From: an uncultured Clostridium sp.
GTDB lineage: Bacteria > Bacillota_I > Bacilli_A > RF39 > UBA660
Assembly (NCBI GenBank): GCA_964388545.1
Contig: CAYMAV010000001.1
Location: 6,272 to 70,271, forward strand
DNA: 64,000 bases
Direction: 5' to 3'
Position 1 is the stretch's first letter, and each line of letters starts with the position of its first letter. A program made the position numbers and the translations under genes. Under the pieces are notes generated by a model. That model had not been told where the DNA came from, ran no database searches, and was given only the letters and a program-made list of their open reading frames with translations. This document shows positions 1 through 51,374 of this stretch, piece by piece.

Positions 1-3000
1 TAGTATCAACTACTAAATTCCCTCCAACAGTACTTTGAGTAAAATTAGTTCTTACATTAAGATAAATATTATCACCTAGATAAACATTATTACTTAAAAG
101 ACTAGAGTTAAGTTCCAAAATCGGATCCTTATTAGTATAGATATTATATATTAATTGTTGTTGCTGAATTCCTATTACCGAAGTTATTATTTGATTATCC
201 GAACTTCTTAACTCCAAAATCATCATCTTGTTGATAACATCCTCATTTATTCCGGCATTCTTAAAATCAAAGATAAATATAAACTCTTCTTCAGCATAAG
301 TATTCTTCCAATATATTTGATTTTTCACCGCATCATCATAATTATTTGTTTGCGTAGTGCTTCCCATTTTTATAAATTTAGATAATTTATAGGCAGCATC
401 TCCATGATCAGCTATTTCAACTCCTTTATCAATATAATCTTGGGCGGTTACAACATAGTAATAGTATTCTGGAAGTGAACCCTCTCGAAGGTCGATCATC
501 GTAATTTTTGTGTTTTCTGGTAAATTATATGTTGAAGATAACACACGATGATACCCTGGTTTATAAATAGTTGTATCTGCTTCTGCATATAAAGAATAAT
601 AAGTTGAAAAACTACTAGTTGAGGTAATATTTACAAGGCTTGTTGGAAACATCTCATATTTTTTACCAGAAGAAATTGTACCCTCATACTCATTACTTTG
701 ATATAATGCTCTATTTAAAGTTACATTTATATTAATTCTTTTAACCTCATTATTTAAATCATCAATTGGAATAATAGCAACTAACGAAATAACTCCTGTT
801 CCCATTTCACCAGATGTTTGTAAGTTTTTGGAGTGATATAAATAAAATAATAAAGTTGGAACCCCGCTTGAATTTTCTTTTTTATAGTTAATACTTCCAC
901 TTATTCTTTCTTCATTTGTTAAAAAAGTTGTTCTACTGTCAGTTACCCATCCTGTATCACTGCTTTCCATTACAAGACTCATAATCCTATCAGCATCCGC
1001 TGAGTTATCGGCTACTCTTGGAATATTTTCTTTTTCAACCAAATTAATATCACTATTAATGCCATCATAATTAAAATTTAAAATTGAAAAAGCAGTATTT
1101 GGATTGGAAAAATTAATTAATGGTAGTTCATAAATACCTAAAGTCGAATATTTAGATGCGGTTAATGTTATATCAAAAGATGCAACTTGTTCACCTATCG
1201 CCCAAATATAGTAGTTAGAATCCTCAGGAGTAGGCTCTACAAAATCAACATAAATTCTATCTGGGTCATTTTTATCATTAAAGACACTATAAAAACCATC
1301 GACCTCATAATTATGATTAATTTTATGAAGACCTAAAACATAACTACCTTTATCAAAATATAAAAGATCTTGGGAAGGCACGATGCTATCATTATTGTAA
1401 TTTGTTTTATAAATTGCCGTATAAACCTTACCATCTCGATCATAACCATACATTCCGAAGAAAGTCATACCAACAACCTCACCATAGGCAGTTATATTTT
1501 CATTAGTTGCAATATTAATATTTTTTCCACCATAGACAAAAAGTTTATTATTAACGTTTCTTGTTACATTTCCATTATCGTCTATTGTTATTATCTCTGG
1601 AGTTTCCAGATTATTTACAATAACCGAACTAGTAAATTTTTTTAACAGATTTGTTCCTGTTTCTAAATATAAAACCGAATTATTAGTTAATTTTAAGCTA
1701 TCAACCCTACTTATTGAAAAAAGCACATCCGAATACTCGTTAGTTCTGTCGGTTGCACCATTAAGCTCAATTACCGAATTACTTAAAGTAACATTTTGAG
1801 CCCTTTGAATTGAAACATTCTTTTTATAATTTGCTTCTGTTCCATAATTTTTTATTAAAATATTGCTATAACCACTAGTACTTGATGCATTTCCGCTACC
1901 AAAAATCGAACCATTAATATTAAATACGGAATGACTTTCGGCATCGATTTTTATATTAATTCCTACCGTTACCGAAATAAAAGTAAAGTCATAAACTTCC
2001 GATCCAGAAGCATTTGCCTCTCCTCCGCCAAATACCGTCCCTCCGATATTTATATTTCCTCTTTTTAACAAGTTATTAATTAAGGTATTAGCTCCAATAT
2101 TTACATTAGCAACTCCATATAAAACCGAAGTATTAGCTCCTCCATAAACATTTCCACCACAAGTAAGACCTGCGATATTTACAACACTTGAAGAATTATT
2201 TAAATCTTCTCTTCCCGTTACTGCAGCATTCCCGCCACCAAAAATATGATTAGTTACTGTTGTTACACCATCGACATTTAAAGTAGTATTTCCATATACC
2301 GTAGCACTTTGACCATTACCTCCACCATAAACACTATGACCGATAATAGAATCCGTAATATGAAGAATAATATTTCCTCTTACTTCTCCTAAGTTTCCGC
2401 CACCATAAATAGAATTTGTTATTCTTGTGTTTTCAACTTTTACATCGACATTATTTTCAACAAACGACTGATTTCCACCACCAAAAACCGATCCACTTAC
2501 ATCGGCATTTCCAACATTTAAATTTACTCTGCTAGTTGGCGCATTATTTCCACCGCCATAAATATCCTTTATATTTCCATAATCGATATTTAAAATAGCA
2601 TTACTTGTTATACCGCCTTGATTATTTCCACCATAAATATAAGTTATATTTGGTTTGTTAGTTGATACCTCAACATTTACATTAGCAGTTGTAACATCTC
2701 CTGCTCTATTAGAGCCACCAAATAAATTTTGAATTTTTACTCCACCTCTAACAATTACATTAGAAGTTGTAACAGAAGCTTCGTTTCCTCCGCCATAAAC
2801 ATTAATAATAGTACCAGTATTCTTTTGTAATATTACATTACTTGTTGTACTATTAGCGTGATTTCCACCACCAAATATATTCGAAATTAATCCTCCATTT
2901 ATCAAGAGATTTGAGCTCTGAGTTAAACCACCATAATTGTTACCACCATAGATATTTGTAAAAGTACCATTAACTGTTTCAATATTAGAACTAACAACCG

Positions 3001-6000
3001 TTCCACTTTGATTAGATCCTCCATAAGTTGTATTAACTATTCCACCCAACAATCTAATATTTGAGCTTTCCGTAATTCCGGCTTGATTTCCTCCACCATA
3101 GATTTCTCCAACAGTTCCAGAGTTCATAACAACATTAGATTTTCTAACATTGGCAAGATTTCCACCACCATAAACAGTGTTTATATTAGTACCACCATTA
3201 ATAACTACATTAGTCTCATCAGATATAGCTTCGTTTCCTCCGCCATAAACTAAAGGAACTTCTCCACCATTTAAAGTAACATAGGAAAGCAAAGTTGTAC
3301 CACCTAGGTTATTACCGCCATAAATCTGATTAGCTTTTCCACTTGTAGTTATAATATTAGAAGCATTAACTGTTCCACTTTCATTAGACCCCCCATATAT
3401 TTTATCAATTGTCGAACCTTTTAAATTAACATTTGTTGTCGTTGCATCTGATCTATTACATCCACCAAAGGCATTAGTTGATACTCCACCATTTAAATTA
3501 ACAGTAGCCGTATTAATAGGTGCATAATTTCCTCCACCATAAAGATTGTTTACTGTTCCACCATTTAAATTTACAGTTATCGTTCCATTAGGTGTACCTT
3601 TAACATCGTTCGCTCCCAACGCGTTATTAACTGTTCCTCCATTAATATTTACCGTAACATTTCCCAAAACATATGGAGTTGTATTTTGATCTCCTTCGCC
3701 ACCACCAAATAAAGCTCCTTCTACGGTTCCTTTATTCATATTTACGGTTGTTGTGTAAGGACTTACATTGCTGTTTGCAACAGTTCCATTAACTACTCCT
3801 AAAGCACTTCCACCATAAACTCTATTTACAATTGGACTTGCTGGATAATTAACATCCCCAATATTAACAACAACATTTTCACTAACAAAAGTACCAGAGT
3901 TTGTTCCCGATACTCCACCTTTTCCACCACCATAGATGCTACCTGCAACTATACCGCCATTAATATCTAAATTAGTACTTCCATGTATTGTTCCACTAAA
4001 ATTACTTCCGCCATAGATACTACCTAAAACATTTCCATCAAGCATTTTAATATATATTTGAGATTTTTTGCTAGTACTTCCCGAACCATTTCTATTTCCA
4101 CCACCATAAATATCTTGGGAAATTGTTCCTCCTAATACATTAATTTTACTTTGAGTTGTTGTTTGACTACCACTTATACCAGTAGCACCAAAATTTCCAC
4201 CACCGTAAACAGAATTTAAAACATTAGCATCTTCATCGATTATTACAAAGGAATTATAAGCTGTCCCAATTGTCGAATACCCATTTCTTCCATTTCCAAT
4301 ACCAAAAACATTACCAGCTGTTGCACCATATAAAGTAAGATTAGCTGCAACAACATCAGGATCTCCTACCATTACATTACCACCAACATAAATAAATGGA
4401 TTGCCTCTTAATGTTCCATCTCCCTCAGAACCAGTATAAGCATTACTTCCACCAAATACATTGTAATTGATCTTACCACCAGTTAATTGAATTATCCTGT
4501 TACCATAGGTTGCTGTAAGTCCTGCTCCTCCAAATACTGCATCGATATTTCCTCCCATTATATAGATATAACTATCATTTAGATTTTCGCGACTAGAATC
4601 CGTTAAAGGTCCTGCTATTAAATTATAGATATAACCACCTTCAACACGACCCATTCTTGATGTGTAATGAGTCCCAGCGTATCTCCCACCGATATAAATT
4701 CCAAAACTATAATCCGTTTTTAATGTTCCAAAACTTCCGCTTTTTACAACAGTATTAAAAGAACTAACATCATTGTTAGAATAATAGTTTCCACTCCAAG
4801 ATCCACCAGCACAAAAATAAAATGTAAGATTAGAATTGTTTTGAGTTATCCTGTCATAGTCATTTCCATAAATACCTTTAGCAAGAACATAATTAGTTGT
4901 TGTACTCCAGGAAGTTGATGCACCATTTGTTAATGATAATGAACTATAGGGTCCACTTTCTACTATCAATTTATACTTTTTAGGATTACTACTACTTCCC
5001 ATACTGCTGTTAGTCCCACCAATAATTGACCTAAAAGCAACGCGAGTTGAACCGCCCGCAGTTATTCCTCTTCCAAGCTTTAGATTATATCCATTACCAT
5101 AAATTGATCTTGTGGTACTAGTAGAACTAGATGGATTATATTCTCCTCCATATGAAGCTGAATAAATATTAATATTTTCTATTCTAACATCGCTATACAA
5201 GTTAACCGCACGGCTACTTATTGTCCATGTCGCCCCACTTACACTACCATTATTTAAAGTAGTTAAAGTAAATGGTTTTGTATTACTATTCCATGTATAG
5301 CTATTATTACTATTCATAACAACGATATTGGTATCTCTAGTAACTAGATAATAATAATCTTTATAGATATCTAAATAATTAGCATTCCCTGCTTGATCTG
5401 CGTATTGAATTAATCTATATAAAGTACATCCGGTTGAGGAATTACAAGTCCCCGACATCAAATTTCCCTGATTATCATATAAACCCGTTATACTTGAATA
5501 CCTTGGAATAATAACCTGCTCATAATAGCCTGACATAACAAAATTATTATTAAAATCATTATGATATGTAATGCTATCTATTTCAAAAACTATCGTATTA
5601 ATGTTAAGCGGTGTCATACCAGTTGCTACTAGATAATAATAATTTGATGATGGTGTTACACCATAATATAGATACTCGGTTTCTGGGGGATTTAGGCTAT
5701 AATAGGTACATCCACCCCAAGAATTACAATAGCAACTGCTTCCTTGCAAACTCCCATAATAATCATAATAACCACTACAACTAGAATTTCTAGGAACAGT
5801 TACTTGTTTATAATATCCCACTAAATCATAAGGTTTATAATTAATAGTATGAGTGTTAATCTTAACCATACTTATATTTTTTAATCCGTTTAAAGCATTA
5901 TTCCAAGACGATGAATTATTAGTTGTTATATAAGAAGTCGTAGCCTCAGTCCAACTAGCATAAAAGTTTACTATCGTAGCATCCGGTATATCCCCATCGT

Positions 6001-6571
6001 AGGTGATGGGAATCTTGGCAAACCTTTCATAGTAAATATTATCAAAGGATATTTCACCATTAGTATAATTTGTATACCAACCATTAAAAGCTTTATTAGA
6101 TGGTCTATTAGAAAAAGGATTATCGATTAACTCTATTAAGATATAATCATCCTCTTTATTAGTGGGAGTACCATTATTATTAACTAGAAAATAATTATAA
6201 TAAACATATAGATATTGAGATTCCGTATTAGATACATATCCTTTTAATCCGTTATTAATATCTTCACCACTATAAATAACCTTAGTCTCAACTAAGTTAA
6301 ATTCATTATAAATATTTTGGTTTTCTCCACTTGGAAGAGCGTTATAGGTAGTAGTTGTATAATTTAGACCTTTATAATAGTTTAGATCTCTTTCTGAATC
6401 ATTAATATAAATTGTCTCTCCAACAATACCAGAAGCTTCTTTTTGCAGTTTAGAGACAAATTCCCCGTGGCTTTTTAAAAAAGTTGAGAGTGCTATTGCT
6501 AGAAACAAAAAAGACAAAAAGAAAAAAACTACTTTTTTTAATTTGATAAGTTCTATTCTTTTTATCTTCAT
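1..6571 (-). CDS. Giant secreted/surface repeat protein (N-terminal >=2190 aa; C-terminus beyond window start). Signal peptide followed by a Cys-rich duplicated module, then >35 tandem ~25-aa YGGGN beta-solenoid-type repeats, then a non-repeat C-terminal region.
   Basis: Minus-strand ATG at 6571-6569 preceded by RBS GAGGGG (revcomp of 6576-6581). Translation begins MKIKRIELIKLKKVVFFFLSFLFLAIALSTFLKS. The frame stays open through position 2. Repeat signature is visible on the + strand as recurring ccaccaccataaa / ccgccataaa about every 75 bp between ~1900 and ~4900. Absent from the ORF track because there is no stop codon in the window. Confidence 0.7.
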   Translation of the reverse strand, partial: MKIKRIELIKLKKVVFFFLSFLFLAIALSTFLKSHGEFVSKLQKEASGIVGETIYINDSERDLNYYKGLNYTTTTYNALPSGENQNIYNEFNLVETKVIYSGEDINNGLKGYVSNTESQYLYVYYNYFLVNNNGTPTNKEDDYILIELIDNPFSNRPSNKAFNGWYTNYTNGEISFDNIYYERFAKIPITYDGDIPDATIVNFYASWTEATTSYITTNNSSSWNNALNGLKNISMVKINTHTINYKPYDLVGYYKQVTVPRNSSCSGYYDYYGSLQGSSCYCNSWGGCTYYSLNPPETEYLYYGVTPSSNYYYLVATGMTPLNINTIVFEIDSITYHNDFNNNFVMSGYYEQVIIPRYSSITGLYDNQGNLMSGTCNSSTGCTLYRLIQYADQAGNANYLDIYKDYYYLVTRDTNIVVMNSNNSYTWNSNTKPFTLTTLNNGSVSGATWTISSRAVNLYSDVRIENINIYSASYGGEYNPSSSTSTTRSIYGNGYNLKLGRGITAGGSTRVAFRSIIGGTNSSMGSSSNPKKYKLIVESGPYSSLSLTNGASTSWSTTTNYVLAKGIYGNDYDRITQNNSNLTFYFCAGGSWSGNYYSNNDVSSFNTVVKSGSFGTLKTDYSFGIYIGGRYAGTHYTSRMGRVEGGYIYNLIAGPLTDSSRENLNDSYIYIMGGNIDAVFGGAGLTATYGNRIIQLTGGKINYNVFGGSNAYTGSEGDGTLRGNPFIYVGGNVMVGDPDVVAANLTLYGATAGNVFGIGNGRNGYSTIGTAYNSFVIIDEDANVLNSVYGGGNFGATGISGSQTTTQSKINVLGGTISQDIYGGGNRNGSGSTSKKSQIYIKMLDGNVLGSIYGGSNFSGTIHGSTNLDINGGIVAGSIYGGGKGGVSGTNSGTFVSENVVVNIGDVNYPASPIVNRVYGGSALGVVNGTVANSNVSPYTTTVNMNKGTVEGALFGGGEGDQNTTPYVLGNVTVNINGGTVNNALGANDVKGTPNGTITVNLNGGTVNNLYGGGNYAPINTATVNLNGGVSTNAFGGCNRSDATTTNVNLKGSTIDKIYGGSNESGTVNASNIITTSGKANQIYGGNNLGGTTLLSYVTLNGGEVPLVYGGGNEAISDETNVVINGGTNINTVYGGGNLANVRKSNVVMNSGTVGEIYGGGNQAGITESSNIRLLGGIVNTTYGGSNQSGTVVSSNIETVNGTFTNIYGGNNYGGLTQSSNLLINGGLISNIFGGGNHANSTTSNVILQKNTGTIINVYGGGNEASVTTSNVIVRGGVKIQNLFGGSNRAGDVTTANVNVEVSTNKPNITYIYGGNNQGGITSNAILNIDYGNIKDIYGGGNNAPTSRVNLNVGNADVSGSVFGGGNQSFVENNVDVKVENTRITNSIYGGGNLGEVRGNIILHITDSIIGHSVYGGGNGQSATVYGNTTLNVDGVTTVTNHIFGGGNAAVTGREDLNNSSSVVNIAGLTCGGNVYGGANTSVLYGVANVNIGANTLINNLLKRGNINIGGTVFGGGEANASGSEVYDFTFISVTVGINIKIDAESHSVFNINGSIFGSGNASSTSGYSNILIKNYGTEANYKKNVSIQRAQNVTLSNSVIELNGATDRTNEYSDVLFSISRVDSLKLTNNSVLYLETGTNLLKKFTSSVIVNNLETPEIITIDDNGNVTRNVNNKLFVYGGKNINIATNENITAYGEVVGMTFFGMYGYDRDGKVYTAIYKTNYNNDSIVPSQDLLYFDKGSYVLGLHKINHNYEVDGFYSVFNDKNDPDRIYVDFVEPTPEDSNYYIWAIGEQVASFDITLTASKYSTLGIYELPLINFSNPNTAFSILNFNYDGINSDINLVEKENIPRVADNSADADRIMSLVMESSDTGWVTDSRTTFLTNEERISGSINYKKENSSGVPTLLFYLYHSKNLQTSGEMGTGVISLVAIIPIDDLNNEVKRININVTLNRALYQSNEYEGTISSGKKYEMFPTSLVNITSTSSFSTYYSLYAEADTTIYKPGYHRVLSSTYNLPENTKITMIDLREGSLPEYYYYVVTAQDYIDKGVEIADHGDAAYKLSKFIKMGSTTQTNNYDDAVKNQIYWKNTYAEEEFIFIFDFKNAGINEDVINKMMILELRSSDNQIITSVIGIQQQQLIYNIYTNKDPILELNSSLLSNNVYLGDNIYLNVRTNFTQSTVGGNLVVDT

Positions 6572-10500: not shown

Positions 10501-11309
10501 CAATATGGATTACCATCTGGTCTTGTTTTAAACACATGGGTAAATGTATTACATTTATCTTTATTTTTTGTGTAATATTCTTTTGCGTTTTCAATCGCAT
10601 TATCAAAATCCTGCTCACTACTAGAGTTTACTCCAATAAACTCTTTTATTTGACTTTTTTCAAAATCTGTTGAACTAAAGTAGCTTGCTTGAATAATGTC
10701 CATAACTAGAAAACATGCATTTTCTTCTATTATTATTTCACCATTATTTTTAGTCATTGAATTTATAGTATTAAATTTAGTAATCGAACCAGCTCCCGCA
10801 CCATAAAAAGAGACATAATATGGTTCGAAGTAATAGGCAACTCCACCAGGAAGTGGAATTTCATCAGCTTTAACATTCTCAATGTTATAAAGTTTTTTCA
10901 ATGTAAGATTTACATCATCTATATGATAATATCCATCACCAGTACATTCATCATCAGGTCCTTCTCCGCATGATTCTCTTTTTACTTTTGGTTTATTTTC
11001 CTCTGTAAAAGGTCTCTTTTCAGTAGACATTAATGCAAGTGACACAATAGTCTTTTTAGGAATTGTATCAGTTGTATAATCATGTCCAGAGTAAGCATCG
11101 AATTGGGGCTCTATAGTCGTAGAGTTAAAAAATGGTACTCCTTCTAAATATTCATTCGCTTCCTTCTCATTTGTTACGGCTGGTTTTTCTTTTTCTAATT
11201 TTGTCTTACTATCACTTGATGTAAAGAAATTAAGATAAACTAGTACTCCTATTATTAATAGTAAAACTACATAACTTGCTATTAACAAGTATTTTTTATT
11301 ATTTGTCAT
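10476..11309 (-). CDS. Hypothetical membrane-anchored extracytoplasmic protein
   Basis: N-terminal TM helix YLLIASYVVLLLIIGVLVYL. Contains a Cys cluster CGEGPDDECTGDGYYH. Confidence 0.5.
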   Translation of the reverse strand: MTNNKKYLLIASYVVLLLIIGVLVYLNFFTSSDSKTKLEKEKPAVTNEKEANEYLEGVPFFNSTTIEPQFDAYSGHDYTTDTIPKKTIVSLALMSTEKRPFTEENKPKVKRESCGEGPDDECTGDGYYHIDDVNLTLKKLYNIENVKADEIPLPGGVAYYFEPYYVSFYGAGAGSITKFNTINSMTKNNGEIIIEENACFLVMDIIQASYFSSTDFEKSQIKEFIGVNSSSEQDFDNAIENAKEYYTKNKDKCNTFTHVFKTRPDGNPYWYSTKVNR

Positions 11310-11339
11310 TTTTCCTCCTTTTTATAACTAAACAAAGAT

Positions 11340-11627
11340 CTATCTAAATCTTTGGGATTTTTTAACTTTTACATAATAATTAACTGGTATCTTTTTGGAA
11401 ATTTCCCATAGTCGACAAACACTGCAATTTCTTGAAAACTCCATGTTAGAATCAATTTCCCAATTGGAAAATTCATGTCCAAAAGTTGTGCAAATTTTAT
11501 TATTTATTTCTCTTAACTCATCTTTCTTAGATTCTAAAATCTTATTAGAAAGGTCTACTTCTGATAAAATCTCTTCTCTTTTTCTAAAAAGATACTCTTT
11601 TATTTCAATTACATCATTATTTTTCAC
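11340..11627 (-). CDS. Small Cys/His-containing hypothetical protein (possible zinc-ribbon), translationally coupled to the ABC-2 permease
   Basis: Contains KICTTFGHEF...CSVCRLW. 1-bp gap to the upstream permease gene. Confidence 0.45.
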   Translation of the reverse strand: MKNNDVIEIKEYLFRKREEILSEVDLSNKILESKKDELREINNKICTTFGHEFSNWEIDSNMEFSRNCSVCRLWEISKKIPVNYYVKVKKSQRFR

Positions 11628-11628
11628 T

Positions 11629-12420
11629 TTAATAAAAATCCTTTTCTTTAAATCTATGTTTTGCTAATAGAATCATTAATATGCTAATTAGAAAACCAAC
11701 AACAAGCCTAAGGATATCCAGTTTAGAAGTTTGGATGATATCTCTTACCGGAATTAATGAGAAGACTGATAAATTACTAATCCATGAAAAGTCATCTGAT
11801 AATCCTCCTACTACATTTATTATATAGAAGAAGAAGACCATACCGATACTAATTGTAACCATTATCTTATTATTTCTAAAAAATGTAGAAATAAAGAAAG
11901 AAATTGTATAAATAACATATAGTACTAATGCCATATTCAAGTACATTAATACCAAAAGATTAAAATCATAGGGCGCTGTTAGTTCATAGCCCCAAAATAT
12001 AAATACAAAAGTTAGTAGTATAAATGATGTTAACAGAATAAAGCCACTAATTAGTTTATTAATAAAGATCTTTTCTCGGCTAATAGGTTTTGATAATAAA
12101 TAATTTATTGAACCTTCACTTTCTTCATTGAGTAGTAATCCTCCTCCTAATAATGAGGCATACATTCCTCCTATTAAGAGTATCATTATTACTCCTTCTG
12201 ACTTAAACCATCCGAAAGCAGACATTATATCAACTAAATCAAAGTTCATTGTCTGAAGCATCTCCTTTGGTAAAAGTTCTAAATAACTATCCATCAGTGC
12301 CGGATCCATTTTATCTATTAGAGTAGGATATATTAAAAATACTAGTAGAAATAAACCCATTATAACTACGGACCAAATTAATAAACTTTTATAACTAGCT
12401 TTCAATTCTTTCTTTATCAT
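11629..12420 (-). CDS. ABC-2 family transporter permease
   Basis: About 6 TM helices. Overlaps the ATPase gene by 4 bp. Confidence 0.7.
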   Translation of the reverse strand: MIKKELKASYKSLLIWSVVIMGLFLLVFLIYPTLIDKMDPALMDSYLELLPKEMLQTMNFDLVDIMSAFGWFKSEGVIMILLIGGMYASLLGGGLLLNEESEGSINYLLSKPISREKIFINKLISGFILLTSFILLTFVFIFWGYELTAPYDFNLLVLMYLNMALVLYVIYTISFFISTFFRNNKIMVTISIGMVFFFYIINVVGGLSDDFSWISNLSVFSLIPVRDIIQTSKLDILRLVVGFLISILMILLAKHRFKEKDFY

Positions 12421-13283
12421 TTATTATCTCCTCCTTTATAGTAAGATAAAAAGATATCTTCTAATTCGGGATTCTCTATTAATAAATTAGTAACTTTTAT
12501 TTCTCCTATTAATTTTATTAGTTTATTAATATCTCCATTATAAGAAAACTTAATAGTGTTCTTATTTACTTCTAATACTTCTTCTTTTATTTTAGATTTT
12601 ATTTTAGAAATATCTCCTTCAATAGTAATAATTTTATTATTAAAAAGTTTATCCAGATCTTTTATCTTTACGATTTTGCCATCTTTTATTAATGCAATAT
12701 CATCACAAAGACCTCCTACTTCCTTCAGATTGTGAGAGGATAGAAATATTGTCTTACCATTTTCTTTTTCCTTTTTTAGAATTCTATGAAAAATATCTTG
12801 AATTAATGGATCAAGCCCCGAAGTCGCTTCATCTAGTATAATTATGTCAGGGTTATGCATTAATGCTGTTACTATTCCTACTTTCTTTAAATTTCCAAAA
12901 GATAATTCCTTAATTTTTTTCTTTGTATCTAAATCTAACTCATTTATTAGCATTTTCGCTTTGTCCATACAATTAAAATCGTAGAAAGAAGCATTATACT
13001 CAATAAACTCCATTACTCTCATGTCTTCATAAATTTCTATTTCACTTGGAAGGTATCCAATTCTATTTCTAATATCAATTTCATCCTTAGTCATCAAAAC
13101 ATCATCAATATATATTTCTCCAGTATAGTTAAGTATATTAATTAAACATTTAATTGTTGTACTTTTACCCGCTCCATTAGGGCCTATAAAACCAAATATT
13201 GTACCTTTAGGTATAGTTAAACTAATATTATCTAATGATTTAAATAAACCATAATATTTTGTTAAATTTCTTATATCAATCAT
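12417..13283 (-). CDS. ABC transporter ATP-binding protein
   Basis: Walker A GPNGAGKST, signature LSFGNLKK, Walker B IIILDEATSGLD, H-loop SSHNL. Confidence 0.85.
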   Translation of the reverse strand: MIDIRNLTKYYGLFKSLDNISLTIPKGTIFGFIGPNGAGKSTTIKCLINILNYTGEIYIDDVLMTKDEIDIRNRIGYLPSEIEIYEDMRVMEFIEYNASFYDFNCMDKAKMLINELDLDTKKKIKELSFGNLKKVGIVTALMHNPDIIILDEATSGLDPLIQDIFHRILKKEKENGKTIFLSSHNLKEVGGLCDDIALIKDGKIVKIKDLDKLFNNKIITIEGDISKIKSKIKEEVLEVNKNTIKFSYNGDINKLIKLIGEIKVTNLLIENPELEDIFLSYYKGGDNK

Positions 13284-47251: not shown

Positions 47252-47357
47252 AAAAATTATAACATTTATAATATACTTTATCTATATTTACAACTAAATT
47301 CAAATTTAATCTATTAATCTTTTTATTTATGATATTATATTTTTAAGGAGTTAGGTT

Positions 47358-48374
47358 ATGACAGAAAAATATAAAATTTTAAATGATGAATCACTAGAAT
47401 TTTTTGAAAATCTTTTAAAAGATAAAGTCAAGGATAAAAATAATTTAGACAGATGTAAGAATGAATTAAAATTACTTTATGAAACAGGTTCTCTTTTTAT
47501 TATAGAAGCCTTATATTTATATAAAAAGAAAAATAAACATATAAAATACTTTTTTAAAAGAACATTTAATAATCTACTTATATTATATTTATTAAAATTA
47601 AATGCTGTTGATCCAATAAAATATAACTTACCATATTATTTTTTTAACGAAAACAAATTAGATGTCGCTATAATAAATGAACCGTCAATTATCTTTATTT
47701 GTTATGAGCTAGGCAAAAAGGATTCCTTCAAAGTAATAGCTGGAAATTTTCAAGAAGAAGACATAGAAGATGTTCCCTTTTTGCTTGATCATTACATATT
47801 TATCCCATATTATATACATCCTTTGGATATGCAGTTTAAATTAAGAAATAGTATGTTTGAAACAGTTGAAGATTTTAGGAATTATAAAAATGAATATTTG
47901 ATTGCTAGAATAAGCGAAATAGAGCCTTTTGTAAATTTAGATATAAAGATCGAAAATGCTTTTACATCAGAATTTGAATTAATGTTAAAAGAAAAATTAA
48001 AACCAAAAACCTTTAATGACTATGTTAAAATTATCTCACTAGCACATGGGACTAATGTATGGAGTGATAATCAAGACAAGCTCTTTGAAAAAGGGAAAAT
48101 TAACATTAAAAATATAATTAGTAATAGAGAAGATATTTATGAACTATTACTTGATCATTCTATAGATGAAAAAACAGCATTAAGAATGTGTAAAGTTTTA
48201 TTTTTTCCAAAGAAAAATAAAAATTATGAATGGAAGGAATGTATAAAAATTATGAATGATCATAATATAGATGATATGTATATAGATATTTTCTATAGAT
48301 TAAATTATATAGCTCCTAGAGGTCAATATGTTAATGAATGTTTAATTGCATTAGATAAGAAAAATTATGTATAA
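47358..48374 (+). CDS. Stand-alone PolC/DnaE C-terminal-region-like protein (pol III alpha fingers/HhH-region homolog lacking the catalytic palm)
   Basis: [51 protein letters not shown] and [16 protein letters not shown] align with the PolC segments [49 protein letters not shown] and YMFPKAHAAAYVLMAV. N-terminal [23 protein letters not shown] resembles [31 protein letters not shown]. Confidence 0.55.
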   Translation: [338 protein letters not shown]

Positions 48375-48392
48375 AAGAAGCATAGATAAAAT

Positions 48393-48803
48393 CTATGCTT
48401 TATATTTTCTTTTAGAATCTTCATACACCAAACTTATTAACCTATCCAAACCCTCATCTTGATTATATCCATCATATTTAGGCGCTCTTTCTAGCTCTTG
48501 AATTTCACTAAACATATCCCAAAACTCTAACTTAAAATGAAATGAAAAATGTCCTTTTGGTGTTTCAATTCCTACAATAAAATCGCCATTAAACATCGGA
48601 TCATTTTCTTCATCAAAATGTTTTTTAGATTTCCATGCTTTATCTTTATTTTGGTTACATATAACACTAAACAAATATACCCTTTGTTTATATAAATCCC
48701 CAAAAGTATGATATTTATCCGATACTTTTTTAGTATTTAAACCCATATTATCTTTTAACCTTACAATCAAACGATTTACAACATCATGCGGTTCCCTAAG
48801 CAT
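48393..48803 (-). CDS. Hypothetical protein
   Basis: 136 aa, no recognizable motif. 24-bp gap to the upstream P-loop gene. Confidence 0.45.
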   Translation of the reverse strand: MLREPHDVVNRLIVRLKDNMGLNTKKVSDKYHTFGDLYKQRVYLFSVICNQNKDKAWKSKKHFDEENDPMFNGDFIVGIETPKGHFSFHFKLEFWDMFSEIQELERAPKYDGYNQDEGLDRLISLVYEDSKRKYKA

Positions 48804-48827: not shown

Positions 48828-49307
48828 TTATAGTTTATCAAAATTTCGATTATTAACAAGTATTAATTTATCTTTATATTGTTCAAGCTCTTTTAAAATT
48901 CTTTTCTCTTTTTTAAAATAAGAATTAACCACTGAATAAAAATATCCTAATTGATTAAATGTTGGTGGAGCATTATATCTTTCTTTACCAATCCTTTGTC
49001 TAAACCATCTTTTTGTAACACGAAGATAAGCCTTAACTCTACTTATTTTAATATAATATATTTTATCAGCCTTTTCTCTTCCTTTTTTAAACTTATCTCT
49101 ACCTACATCTTCAATAATCCAATCCTTTTTAATTAAAATATCTTTAAATGTTTTACTTACTTCTTCATCTGTTCTTTTAATGTTTCCATTATCATCGTCC
49201 CAAGCTACTTTATCAAGTTCATAACTTTTTATTTTATATTTCTTAGATAATTTTTCAGAAAGATAGGTTTTCCCACTTCCAGGAGATCCAATTATATATA
49301 TTCTCAT
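48828..49307 (-). CDS. P-loop NTPase, topology-modulation-protein / adenylate-kinase-like (AAA_33)
   Basis: MRIYIIGSPGSGKTYLS. Confidence 0.7.
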   Translation of the reverse strand: MRIYIIGSPGSGKTYLSEKLSKKYKIKSYELDKVAWDDDNGNIKRTDEEVSKTFKDILIKKDWIIEDVGRDKFKKGREKADKIYYIKISRVKAYLRVTKRWFRQRIGKERYNAPPTFNQLGYFYSVVNSYFKKEKRILKELEQYKDKLILVNNRNFDKL

Positions 49308-50836: not shown

Positions 50837-50910
50837 TGGCAGGGATAGAAGGATTCGAACCCTCACGAACGGTTTTGGAGACCGACATACTACCATTATA
50901 TGATATCCCT
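50837..50910 (-). tRNA. tRNA-Trp (anticodon CCA)
   Basis: Revcomp AGGGATATCATATAATGGTAGTATGTCGGTCTCCAAAACCGTTCGTGAGGGTTCGAATCCTTCTATCCCTGCCA. Anticodon loop CTCCAAA. Closely parallels Bacillus tRNA-Trp. Confidence 0.85.
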
Positions 50911-50972: not shown

Positions 50973-51374
50973 TCAATTGGAATTGACCTCTAACTCATTA
51001 ATATTTTTATCAATATCACTTTTAAGAGTTGTATTTAAATTCTCATAATTTTCTACAGCCATATTTAAAAATTTTATATATATTAACAACGACTCTGATA
51101 TTGAATCATAACTATTAGTAAGCTCTAAATATTTTTCACAATATTTTTTTTGAAGTTCACTATTCCATATATCGGTCCCTAATTCAGAATAAAACTTTAG
51201 CAGCTTTTCTTGAAACTCTCCGCCTAAATTTCCAACAATATAATTACAAGCAGTCATTTCTGCCAATATATTTTTAAAATTTACAGATAAACTTTCCTTA
51301 GTTGTTTTTAAGGTTACAGAATCTGATAATTTATTATAATAATCTTGCATTTCTGCCGTAAAATATTGCCCCAT
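50973..51374 (-). CDS. Hypothetical protein
   Basis: 133 aa, acidic, predicted helical. Confidence 0.45.
   Translation of the reverse strand: MGQYFTAEMQDYYNKLSDSVTLKTTKESLSVNFKNILAEMTACNYIVGNLGGEFQEKLLKFYSELGTDIWNSELQKKYCEKYLELTNSYDSISESLLIYIKFLNMAVENYENLNTTLKSDIDKNINELEVNSN

What the first reader, a model, noticed from the sequence alone, without database searches (positions are those of the whole stretch)
47358..48374. Free-standing 338-aa protein homologous to the C-terminal region of PolC/DnaE but lacking the polymerase active site
Several blocks align in order with the B. subtilis PolC C-terminal third. [23 protein letters not shown] aligns with [40 protein letters not shown] aligns with [31 protein letters not shown] aligns with [33 protein letters not shown] aligns with [34 protein letters not shown] aligns with YMFPKAHAAAYVLMAV. 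The ~330-aa catalytic palm between the first and second block, including the PDIDLNF aspartates, is reduced to about 150 aa with no acidic triad. The gene is intact (good RBS AAGGAG, no frameshifts) and is the only + strand gene in a 35-kb stretch of minus-strand genes. It sits among small accessory genes. It could be a non-catalytic pol III alpha-like DNA-binding protein (HhH and fingers remnants), possibly phage or plasmid derived.
Basis: seen in the sequence. Interest (0 to 1): 0.6.

Follow-up and report, generated by a model that had tools for sequence, protein, structure and literature searches.

The report
Catalytically degenerate mini-PolC pseudo-polymerase gene
This intact 338-residue gene encodes a shrunken copy of the palm and fingers of the bacterial replicative DNA polymerase PolC that has lost the residues needed to make DNA, and it belongs to a conserved, apparently undescribed family that travels with mobile DNA in uncultured low-GC gut bacteria.

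Summary
The ORF at 47358-48374 (+) is real: good RBS, hairpin terminator, 338 aa. Its homology to PolC is real. The finger segment (res 202-337) matches PolC at E 1e-20 to 1e-22. The whole protein (res 18-329) aligns with a ~700-aa "short PolC" class at HHalign E 1e-42. An AlphaFold model (pLDDT 90) superposes on PolC/DnaE cores at TM 0.66-0.73.

It is not a polC fragment. At least 42 clusters of ~340-aa homologues exist at 36-48% identity, with dN/dS 0.14-0.3. The window holds no other PolC-like piece.

The palm fold is kept. The PHP domain, Zn-finger insert, thumb, clamp motif and duplex-binding domain are absent. The catalytic Asp positions and the GS motif are not conserved: D102/A104/R184 here, and GS replaced by an invariant NN. 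The family is acidic (pI ~5).

Homologues occur only in uncultured gut Bacilli/"Tenericutes" MAGs. Some are solo chromosomal genes, as here. Others sit in integrative mobile elements or defence islands next to other stand-alone replisome domains: PolC-type OB, DnaG Zn-ribbon, DnaB C-terminal ATPase, DnaA-like AAA+.

Most likely it is a non-enzymatic replisome-interacting pseudo-polymerase. That function is inferred, not shown. I rate it a new variant of a known kind, of moderate to high interest.

The parts
47252..47357 (.). 106-bp divergent intergenic region between the PduL-like gene (-) and the mini-PolC gene (+). It presumably holds both promoters.
   Evidence: Promoter-like hexamers are present but no more frequent than in shuffles (13 found against 12.2 expected), so no promoter is claimed.
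47345..47350 (+). Ribosome-binding site AAGGAG, 7 nt before the ATG.
   Evidence: Read directly from the sequence.
47358..48374 (+). Mini-PolC coding sequence: 338 aa, 40.7 kDa, pI 6.2, GC 22.3% against 27.3% for the window.
   Evidence: The family comprises at least 42 clusters. The AlphaFold model has pLDDT 90 and pTM 0.88.
47358..47651 (+). Residues 1-98: N-terminal helical part of the C-family palm. It includes the former GS-motif segment, now K67-R-T-F-N71-N72, and the conserved VDPIKYNL (84-91).
   Evidence: Pfam DNA_pol3_alpha model positions 5-93, E 0.056. HHalign to short PolC. N71/N72 are present in 26 and 27 of 27 members.
47652..47927 (+). Residues 99-190: degenerate Pol-beta-like palm beta-sheet (strands 101-105, 124-130, 145-150, 160-172, 181-187). 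D102, A104 and R184 stand at the three catalytic Asp positions. The thumb is reduced to a ~15-residue low-confidence loop (135-142).
47961..48368 (+). Residues 202-337: PolC-type fingers segment (LKPKT, [24 protein letters not shown]). This is the part most similar to PolC.
   Evidence: NCBIfam PolC E 2.4e-20. Pfam DNA_pol3_finger 24.1 bits against a cut-off of 22. PDB 3f2b and 9qpc. HHalign to PolC residues 1105-1241. tblastn of PolC against the window hits only 47961-48353.
48377..48401 (.). Bidirectional intrinsic-terminator hairpin shared with the convergent WDGH-domain gene.
   Evidence: 11-pair stem followed by a T-run, detected on both strands.

Best explanation
The gene encodes a pseudo-polymerase: a PolC-derived palm-plus-fingers core. 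It has lost the PHP/exonuclease module, Zn finger, thumb, clamp-binding motif and duplex-binding domain, and also the conserved catalytic carboxylates and the GS nucleotide-binding motif.

It belongs to a conserved, purifying-selected accessory gene family of uncultured low-GC gut Bacilli. The family most likely arose by stepwise reduction of ~700-aa PHP-palm-thumb-fingers 'short PolC' proteins carried on mobile elements. In many genomes it sits in an operon with other stand-alone replisome domains: a PolC-type OB fold directly upstream, a DnaG Zn-ribbon, a DnaB C-terminal ATPase and a DnaA-like AAA+ protein.

My inference is that it does not synthesise DNA. Instead it probably acts through binding, as an adaptor, decoy or modulator that engages the replication machinery or a primer-template/nucleotide ligand, for the benefit of or in conflict with mobile DNA. 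The copy in this window is a solo, horizontally acquired-looking chromosomal copy.

Shown: homology, fold, domain losses, non-conservation of active-site residues, family conservation, distribution and gene neighbourhoods. Inferred: lack of catalysis and the binding/adaptor role.
For: Homology and fold.

Active site not conserved:
- Asp1 column: S7/N7/C3/D2/E2 and others.
- Asp2 column: D16/E4/S3/K2/A/G.
- Asp3 column: R17/K5.
- GS motif replaced by an invariant NN.
- In a regex census, none of the core-family members carries the canonical GS or third-Asp motif and one of about 60 carries a DxD motif, against 11 of 11 PolC of at least 900 aa with the DxD motif.

A real, selected family:
- 42 clusters, all ~340 aa, 36-48% identical.
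- About 30 representatives at the 50% identity level, plus further mini forms and ~700-aa forms.
- dN/dS 0.14-0.3.

Not a polC fragment: there is no other PolC-like sequence in the window.

Mobile or accessory character:
- No synteny with the window's neighbours in 26 genome loci.
- Two copies per locus in L003, L004, L006 and L007.
- Recombinases, an integrase, a relaxase and defence genes nearby.
- Gene GC of 22.3% against 27.3% for the window.
- Head-on orientation as the lone + strand gene.

Replisome-domain neighbours:
- OB-like ORF just upstream in at least 13 loci. The top PDB hits of its profile are the PolC OB domain.
- DnaB_C-only proteins.
- DnaG Zn-ribbon-only protein, E 9e-35.
- Split DnaA-like AAA+ protein.

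Acidic pI argues for protein binding rather than generic DNA binding.
Against: No experiment and no interaction prediction supports any specific partner.

The window copy has none of the partner genes. The iterated OB HMM search of all window ORFs was negative, so whatever the operon does may not apply to this copy.

The loss of acidic residues is incomplete. Position 104 is acidic in 20 of 27 members and position 187 in 24 of 27. The window protein has D102 and E187. Residual metal or nucleotide binding, or an unusual chemistry, is therefore not excluded.

The exact register of the third-Asp strand differs between MAFFT and HHalign.

The OB-to-PolC link is weak: E 0.18 and 0.74.

PHROGs and PADLOC give no hit for the mini-PolC protein, so neither a phage role nor a defence role is documented.
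Confidence: 0.6

Rival explanations
1. It is a sequence-independent DNA or primer-template binding protein. The retained palm and fingers surface clamps a primer terminus or template strand, possibly together with the separately encoded PolC-type OB protein.
For: In PolC the palm and fingers contact DNA and the incoming nucleotide (PMC12592400; PMC8373059). An OB-fold gene lies directly upstream of the mini-PolC gene in at least 13 loci, and its best PDB matches are the PolC OB domain. The pocket-lining finger motif is remodelled but conserved: G(R/K)GQAxSE, with R321 in 25 of 27, G322 in 27 of 27 and E327 in 25 of 27 members.
Against: The family is acidic (pI ~4.8-6.4 in 25 of 27 members). 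The thumb, the duplex-binding HhH domain and the clamp motif, which hold the duplex in PolC, are absent. No OB partner is present in this window.
Confidence: 0.15
2. It is a decoy or jamming factor in conflicts between mobile elements, phages and the host. As a PolC look-alike, it either soaks up inhibitors that target the host polymerase or poisons a competitor's replisome.
For: Some members sit in or next to defence islands: MTase, McrBC, Fic and SMODS in L041/L042, and type IIG RM, NERD and a PLD-helicase in L045. The gene travels with several other catalytically incomplete replisome domains, namely a DnaG Zn-ribbon alone and DnaB_C alone. The E. faecium PolC inhibitor-pocket residues Y1274, F1276 and Y1284 (PMC12592400) fall in the stretch that aligns with res 316-327.
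Against: No PADLOC model matches the mini-PolC protein. Many copies are solo among housekeeping genes. No toxin or effector partner is evident.
Confidence: 0.15
3. It is still an enzyme: a minimal Pol-beta-fold nucleotidyltransferase, such as a primase-like or signalling-nucleotide synthase, that uses a non-canonical set of residues.
For: The palm beta-sheet is retained, with weak Foldseek similarity to small alarmone synthetases, TUTases and CCA-adding enzymes. Acidic residues persist at positions 104 (20 of 27) and 187 (24 of 27). In L008 a DnaG Zn-ribbon and a DnaB_C ATPase are present without a primase catalytic domain.
Against: No acidic position in the sheet is invariant. The window protein itself has Ala at 104. 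The GS motif that binds the triphosphate is replaced by NN in all members. The Foldseek hits to other nucleotidyltransferases are not significant (E > 0.3).
Confidence: 0.07
4. It is a decaying remnant or fragment of a polC gene, or an annotation artefact.
For: It covers only part of PolC and lacks catalytic residues. Some metagenomic relatives are shorter pieces of 95-250 aa.
Against: Start, stop and length are conserved in at least 42 clusters at 36-48% identity. dN/dS is 0.14-0.3. The gene has its own RBS and terminator. The fold is predicted with high confidence. No other PolC pieces lie in the window.
Confidence: 0.03

Closest known systems
PolC (Gram-positive replicative DNA polymerase III alpha, C-family; PDB 3F2B, 9QPC)
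   Same: The palm and first part of the fingers are homologous. The finger segment is ~30% identical (E 1e-20 to 1e-22) and the model matches the whole core at TM 0.66-0.73.
   Different: 338 aa against ~1400-1450 aa. There is no N-terminal domain, OB, PHP, DnaQ exonuclease, Zn-finger insert, thumb, clamp-binding motif or duplex-binding domain. The catalytic aspartates and GS motif are not conserved. The protein scores 72 bits against the NCBIfam equivalog cut-off of 873.
~650-815-aa 'short PolC-like' proteins (PHP-palm-thumb-fingers) of Clostridia MAGs, e.g. P0108/L030, L025, P0106, P0124. I found no description of these in the literature searched.
   Same: They are the closest relatives outside the family: HHalign E 1.2e-42 over res 18-329. 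They share VDPIKYNL, end at about the same point in the fingers, and sit in mobile-element-like contexts (FtsK/SpoIIIE and HTH genes next to P0108).
   Different: They keep the PHP domain and thumb. Many keep the DxD, GS and third-Asp motifs (23 of 34 have DxD), although some, such as L030 (E/N/N), have lost them.
ImuB (catalytically inactive Y-family polymerase paralogue acting as a scaffold in the ImuA-ImuB-DnaE2 mutasome) and other inactivated Y-family polymerases (iPolY)
   Same: The concept is the same: a polymerase fold kept under selection after loss of the catalytic carboxylates, working through protein interactions (discussed in PMC12926913).
   Different: The fold family is unrelated (Y against C). 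ImuB has a clamp-binding motif and defined partners, and none is known here. This is an analogy only.
PolX-like proteins and the inactive C-terminal polymerase module of eukaryotic Pol epsilon
   Same: They are polymerase-derived proteins that have shed or inactivated the polymerase function and persist as structural or accessory modules (PolX-like: PMC12926913; Pol epsilon: from my own knowledge).
   Different: PolX-like proteins keep PHP and lose the polymerase domain. Here the opposite part is kept, and the lineage and context differ.

Membership tests
C-family replicative DNA polymerase (PolC/DnaE alpha subunit) | Three catalytic aspartates in the palm (DxD strand plus a third Asp; E. faecium PolC D972/D974 per PMC12592400; E. 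coli D401/D403/D555 from my own knowledge) | tested here: not met
   The window protein has D102, A104 and R184 at these positions. The family columns read S/N/C/D/E..., D16/E4/S3/K2/A/G, and R17/K5. Only one of about 60 core members has a canonical DxD motif by regex.
C-family replicative DNA polymerase (PolC/DnaE alpha subunit) | Pol-beta-type GS motif (RGSxGSS) that binds the incoming triphosphate | tested here: not met
   It is replaced by (K/R)G(M/T)xNN, with N72 in 27 of 27 and N71 in 26 of 27 members. The window protein reads KRTFNN.
C-family replicative DNA polymerase (PolC/DnaE alpha subunit) | N-terminal PHP domain | tested here: not met
   There is no Pfam PHP hit. The protein starts at the position equivalent to residue ~281 of the ~700-aa short PolC, just after PHP.
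C-family replicative DNA polymerase (PolC/DnaE alpha subunit) | Thumb subdomain inserted in the palm | tested here: not met
   About 35-60 residues between the AGT strand and the GGxIIIP strand are reduced to ~15 residues, including the only low-pLDDT loop, 135-142.
C-family replicative DNA polymerase (PolC/DnaE alpha subunit) | Fingers domain | tested here: inconclusive
   Only part is present. Pfam DNA_pol3_finger model positions 50-100 of 166 score 24.1 bits against a cut-off of 22. The match to PolC covers residues 1105-1241 of 1394.
C-family replicative DNA polymerase (PolC/DnaE alpha subunit) | Clamp-binding motif and duplex-binding (HhH) domain C-terminal to the fingers | tested here: not met
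   The protein ends at the equivalent of PolC residue ~1241 of 1394. The Q239xxL242F243 string lies inside a predicted helix inherited from PolC (AQELI) and is not a free clamp-binding peptide.
C-family replicative DNA polymerase (PolC/DnaE alpha subunit) | Score above the curated NCBIfam equivalog cut-offs (NF001688 873 bits; TIGR01405 1043 bits) | tested here: not met
   71.8 and 67.7 bits.
Mini-PolC family (defined here: ~320-390-aa palm plus fingers proteins of gut Bacilli) | Full-length similarity, shared length and signature motifs (NN at 71-72, [11 protein letters not shown], LKPKTxxDYVKI, SLAHGTx[11 protein letters not shown], GRGQAxSEC) | tested here: met
   The window protein is 36-48% identical over 93-100% of its length to 35 of the 42 clusters. 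It carries most motifs with a few substitutions: K67-R68 for RG, P320 for G, Y324 for A.
Pol-beta-like nucleotidyltransferase fold superfamily | Mixed beta-sheet palm with hG[GS] and [DE]x[DE] catalytic motifs | tested here: inconclusive
   The fold is retained according to the AlphaFold strands and the PolC/DnaE superposition. Hits to other nucleotidyltransferases are weak (E > 0.3). The catalytic motifs are not retained.
Known phage protein families (PHROGs) or defence systems (PADLOC) | Profile match | tested here: not met
   No hit for the mini-PolC protein in either library at E <= 0.01.

The most novel reading that the evidence does not exclude
Mini-PolC is one component of a mobile-element-encoded set of catalytically stripped replisome domains: a PolC-type OB fold, the PolC palm-fingers core, a DnaG zinc ribbon, the DnaB C-terminal ATPase and a DnaA-like AAA+ protein. 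Together they would form a 'shadow replisome' that captures, re-targets or jams the host (or a rival element's) replication machinery in trans. This would be a previously unrecognised strategy of replication parasitism or defence. Solo chromosomal copies such as the one in this window would be domesticated or orphaned members of the set.
Probability: 0.2. Interest if true: 0.85.

Novelty: new variant of a known kind. Interest (0 to 1): 0.62.

Why it matters
C-family polymerases are regarded as universally catalytic, essential bacterial enzymes. Systematic surveys (PMC3919608; PMC12926913) explicitly discarded truncated or fragmentary sequences or those lacking an intact active site, so inactive derivatives have gone unreported.

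A conserved, selected, catalytically degenerate PolC core would add the C-family to the polymerase families known to spawn pseudo-enzymes; the Y-family ImuB is the precedent. Besides the core family, the profile search shows a size series from ~1400 through ~700 and ~400 to ~340 aa among PolC relatives in metagenomes.

Its co-occurrence with other isolated replisome domains on mobile elements suggests an unexplored way in which mobile DNA interfaces with host replication in abundant but uncultured gut bacteria. The retained, remodelled pocket overlaps the site targeted by PolC antibiotics such as ibezapolstat, so a decoy role, if real, could bear on drug susceptibility.

Tried and rejected
- Fragment of a disrupted polC. 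tblastn of a canonical PolC and two short PolC proteins against the window found only 47961-48353. Rejected.
- Bounded prophage or island at the tRNA-Trp gene (50837-50910). No att-like direct repeats were found in 46-52 kb, only AT-rich chance matches. No boundary is claimed.
- Phage or plasmid origin. There were no full-length matches in the phage, plasmid, IMG/VR or BFVD collections, only PolC/DnaE finger or palm segments.
- PHROGs and PADLOC gave no hit for the protein.
- Clamp-binding motif. Q239-x-x-L242-F243 fits QxxLF, but it lies in a predicted helix and corresponds to PolC's own AQELI. I rejected it as a clamp-binding peptide.
- Promoter prediction was no better than shuffled sequence.
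- Synteny with the window's neighbours (pgk, argS, the PduL-like gene, the WDGH gene): none in 26 genome loci.
- The listing of cluster members returned neighbours or unrelated proteins (P0043, a 196-aa protein; P0058, a resolvase) as 'members' of clusters 4 and 5. BLASTP showed that the 196-aa upstream ORF of L037, near-identical to P0043, is unrelated to the mini-PolC. I did not use those rows.
- I could not test whether the host genome also has canonical polC and dnaE.
Full report
**1.

The ORF 47358..48374 (+) encodes 338 aa. AAGGAG lies 7 nt upstream of the ATG. A strong hairpin terminator follows the stop at 48377-48401. The window is 27.3% GC with C far exceeding G on the + strand. Almost all genes lie on the - strand. 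This is the only + strand ORF of at least 120 aa between 14.5 and 64 kb that does not overlap a longer - strand ORF. Its GC content is 22.3%, below that of its neighbours.

**2. The homology to PolC is real and extends over the whole protein**

- The finger segment (res ~202-337) hits the NCBIfam PolC equivalogs at E 2.4e-20 and 4.6e-19, far below their cut-offs.
- It hits Pfam DNA_pol3_finger just above the gathering score.
- It hits the solved PolC structures 3F2B and 9QPC at E ~1e-11, improving to 7e-22 with a family profile.
- It aligns to a canonical 1394-aa PolC at residues 1105-1241 with HHalign E 2.6e-22.
- On its own, the N-terminal half gives only a sub-threshold DNA_pol3_alpha hit (E 0.056).
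- A profile of the family aligns residues 18-329 to residues 281-676 of a class of ~700-aa 'short PolC' proteins with probability 100% and E 1.2e-42.
- An AlphaFold2 model built on 27 homologues is confident (pLDDT 90.1, pTM 0.88).
- Its best Foldseek matches in the PDB are PolC (E 8.5e-11, query TM 0.66-0.73) and then DnaE. These run over the full length with ~130 gap columns on the query side.
- Weak, non-significant matches to small alarmone synthetases, TUTases and CCA-adding enzymes fit a retained Pol-beta-like palm sheet.

**3. What is kept and what is lost**

Kept:
- the helical N-terminal part of the palm;
- the palm beta-sheet (strands at 101-105, 124-130, 145-150, 160-172 and 181-187);
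- the first part of the fingers.

Lost relative to PolC:
- the N-terminal domain, OB fold, PHP domain and exonuclease (the protein begins just after PHP);
- the Zn-finger insert after VDP...;
- most of the thumb, reduced to ~15 residues that include the only low-confidence loop (135-142);
- ~25 residues at the palm-fingers junction;
- everything after PolC residue ~1241, which means the rest of the fingers, the clamp-binding motif and the duplex-binding HhH domain.

The palm is degenerate rather than deleted.

**4. The active site is not conserved**

| PolC feature | Window residue | Family column (27 members) |
|---|---|---|
| First Asp of the PDIDLNF strand | D102 | S7, N7, C3, D2, E2 and others |
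| Second Asp | A104 | D16, E4, S3, K2, A, G |
| Third Asp (HHalign register) | R184 | R17, K5 |
| GS motif RGSxGSS | KRTFNN | (K/R)G(M/T)xNN, N72 in 27/27, N71 in 26/27 |
| KAHAAAY finger motif | PRGQYVNE | G(R/K)GQAxSE |

The KAHAAAY motif lines the nucleotide/inhibitor pocket in E. faecium PolC (Y1274, F1276, Y1284; PMC12592400).

A regex census found no canonical GS or third-Asp motif, and one DxD motif, in about 60 core-family sequences. All 11 PolC of at least 900 aa carry the DxD motif, as do 23 of 34 proteins of 600-899 aa.

Two caveats apply. The register of the third strand differs between MAFFT and HHalign. Position 187 is acidic in 24 of 27 members, E187 here. The loss of carboxylates is therefore incomplete, and inactivity is inferred, not shown.

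**5. It is a family, not a fragment**

The word-indexed search found 42 clusters, nearly all 320-370 aa. Most are 36-48% identical over 93-100% of the query, and none carries a name from its source. One member of P0004's cluster is labelled 'DNA polymerase III, alpha subunit' and two 'hypothetical protein'. Twenty-three positions are invariant.

The exhaustive profile search of 1.84 billion representatives gave 1565 hits at E <= 1e-3:
- about 30 full-length core-family representatives;
- further 350-440-aa mini forms, some of which retain parts of the active site, for example P0161;
- many 650-815-aa PHP-palm-thumb-fingers proteins. Several of these score better than the best-scoring canonical-length PolC (1394 aa, E 3e-29).

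dN/dS between related copies is 0.14-0.3. tblastn with PolC finds nothing else in the window. A size series from ~1400 through ~700 and ~400 to ~340 aa is thus visible, and in the top hits the DxD motif becomes rarer with decreasing length.

**6. Distribution and context**

In one genome per GTDB species, 26 loci encode the family. Of the 24 full-length loci, 23 come from uncultured 'Bacilli' or 'Tenericutes' gut MAGs of human (Hadza), rabbit and mouse origin, and one MAG is labelled Muribaculaceae. None shares synteny with the window's neighbours.

Contexts fall into two kinds.

*Solo chromosomal copies among housekeeping genes:*
- the window: pgk, argS, a PduL-like gene, then mini-PolC, then a WDGH-domain gene;
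- P0004: frr, GGDEF, mini-PolC, YibE_F;
- P0003: mreC, an M23 peptidase, an OB gene, mini-PolC;
- P0029.

*Mobile-element or island contexts:*
- a serine recombinase in 6 loci;
- integrase, Mob_Pre, resistance genes and a defence island in L041/L042;
- integrase, resolvase, DUF5906, PIF1 and RM genes in L045;
- two paralogous copies per locus in L003, L004, L006 and L007.

In these loci the gene is operonic with other isolated replisome domains:
- an OB-fold protein directly upstream in at least 13 loci. The top PDB matches of its profile are the OB domain of PolC, though weakly (E 0.18 and 0.74);
- DnaB_C-only ATPases of 212-231 aa, and a DnaB_C fusion with a weak Bac_DnaA_C-like match at its C-terminus;
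- a 92-aa DnaG zinc ribbon alone (E 9e-35);
- a split DnaA-like AAA+ protein.

No family member was found in cultured phages, plasmids, IMG/VR or BFVD. PHROGs and PADLOC are silent. The closest outgroup, a ~700-aa short PolC (P0108), sits next to FtsK/SpoIIIE and HTH genes.

**7. Mechanism**

Shown: this is a PolC-derived palm-fingers core without conserved catalytic residues, under purifying selection, accessory and mobile.

Inferred: it acts by binding rather than by catalysis. The acidic pI (6.2 here, ~5 typically) and the loss of the thumb and duplex-binding domains argue against autonomous DNA clamping. A protein partner, or together with the OB protein a template or primer-terminus ligand, is therefore more plausible. 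The remodelled but conserved pocket motif (R321, G322, E327) and the invariant NN suggest a conserved functional site of unknown specificity.

I put the pseudo-polymerase, replisome-interacting reading at about 0.6 overall. The identity is very likely; the specific role is uncertain. Rivals are a DNA-binding module working with OB (0.15), a conflict decoy or jammer (0.15), a non-canonical enzyme (0.07) and a pseudogene (0.03).

**8. Comparison with what is known**

The protein fails the membership tests for a C-family polymerase: PHP, triad, GS motif, thumb, clamp and duplex-binding domains, and the curated cut-offs. It is nonetheless homologous to the PolC core.

Conceptually it resembles ImuB and other inactivated Y-family polymerases, PolX-like proteins and the inactive Pol epsilon module. 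The two systematic surveys of bacterial polymerases removed truncated sequences or fragments without intact active sites and describe no inactive C-family core (PMC3919608, PMC12926913). Full-text searches for 'PolC-like' and 'DNA_pol3_finger' found nothing relevant. Within the searched literature the family appears to be undescribed.

**9. Verdict**

The finding is real and its core interpretation is right, with corrections on domain content and the DNA-binding claim. Novelty: a new variant of a known kind, that is, a pseudo-enzyme derivative of the C-family polymerase. Interest is moderate to high. It rises if the co-occurring stripped replisome domains prove to act together.

Noticed in passing
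window 2-6571 (-): A very long ORF of more than 2190 aa runs off the start of the window. It has an N-terminal signal or transmembrane-like segment and no Pfam match at E <= 0.01. It is probably a giant surface protein.
   Followed up: partly
L025:1395-3500, L030:1255-3366, L031:8264-10474; P0106, P0108, P0113, P0124, P0133, P0144: This is a large class of ~650-815-aa 'short PolC' proteins (PHP-palm-thumb-fingers) with no OB, exonuclease or C-terminal domains, found in Clostridia MAGs. Some keep the catalytic motifs (L031: Zn finger plus PDIDLNF). Others have lost them (L030: E/N/N). P0108 lies next to FtsK/SpoIIIE and HTH genes. I found no description of this class in the literature searched.
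   Followed up: partly
L008:11452-11730 and 11727-12422; L003:10975-11613; L016:11387-12598: These are stand-alone replisome domains. A 92-aa DnaG CHC2 zinc ribbon (E 9e-35) overlaps by 4 nt the start of a DnaB_C-only ATPase, with no TOPRIM primase domain present. There are also 212-aa DnaB_C-only proteins and a 403-aa DnaB_C protein with a weak DnaA_C-like HTH match (E 0.03).
   Followed up: partly
L005:1945-2934, L010:8997-9968, L011:9001-9975, L020:8103-9077; L003:9275-9889, L006:840-1466: The OB-fold partner comes in three architectures: ~135 aa alone; fused to a ~190-aa C-terminal domain with no Pfam match; or preceded by an XRE-type HTH-like N-terminus (judged from the sequence, no Pfam scan run). 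The OB domain's best PDB matches are the OB domain of PolC, at non-significant E values (0.18 and 0.74).
   Followed up: partly
L003 (9920-10951 and 12766-13794), L004, L006, L007 (9896-10954 and 10961-11977): Two divergent mini-PolC paralogues occur per locus, adjacent in L007. In L003, L006 and L007 the two fall into separate sequence types, which raises the possibility of hetero-oligomers.
   Followed up: no
L041:11046-11255 and 11281-11742 (also L042, L043): Two small ORFs directly downstream of a mini-PolC match the two halves of the DnaA ATPase domain (Pfam Bac_DnaA model positions 3-63 and 86-153). This is probably a frameshifted or split DnaA/DnaC-like AAA+ gene.
   Followed up: partly
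window 48393-48803 (-), 48828-49307 (-), 50837-50910 (-), 50973-51374 (-): Downstream of the gene lie a WDGH-domain protein (Pfam E 4e-35; phrog_3392, unknown function), an AAA_18 kinase-like protein, tRNA-Trp(CCA) and a weakly YwqH-like small protein. The stretch looks like an accessory patch, but no element boundaries were found.
   Followed up: partly
window, whole: There is a strong strand asymmetry: 10,941 C against 6,520 G on the + strand. Nearly all genes are on the - strand. The window therefore probably lies within one replichore, with the mini-PolC gene transcribed head-on to replication.
   Followed up: no
L037:9337-9927 (P0043): A conserved 196-aa protein lies directly upstream of the P0004-type solo copies. 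It has no Pfam match. By eye, its sequence has a D...EIK pattern reminiscent of PD-(D/E)xK nucleases. The listing of cluster members listed it, and a resolvase (P0058), as 'members' of mini-PolC clusters although they are unrelated.
   Followed up: partly
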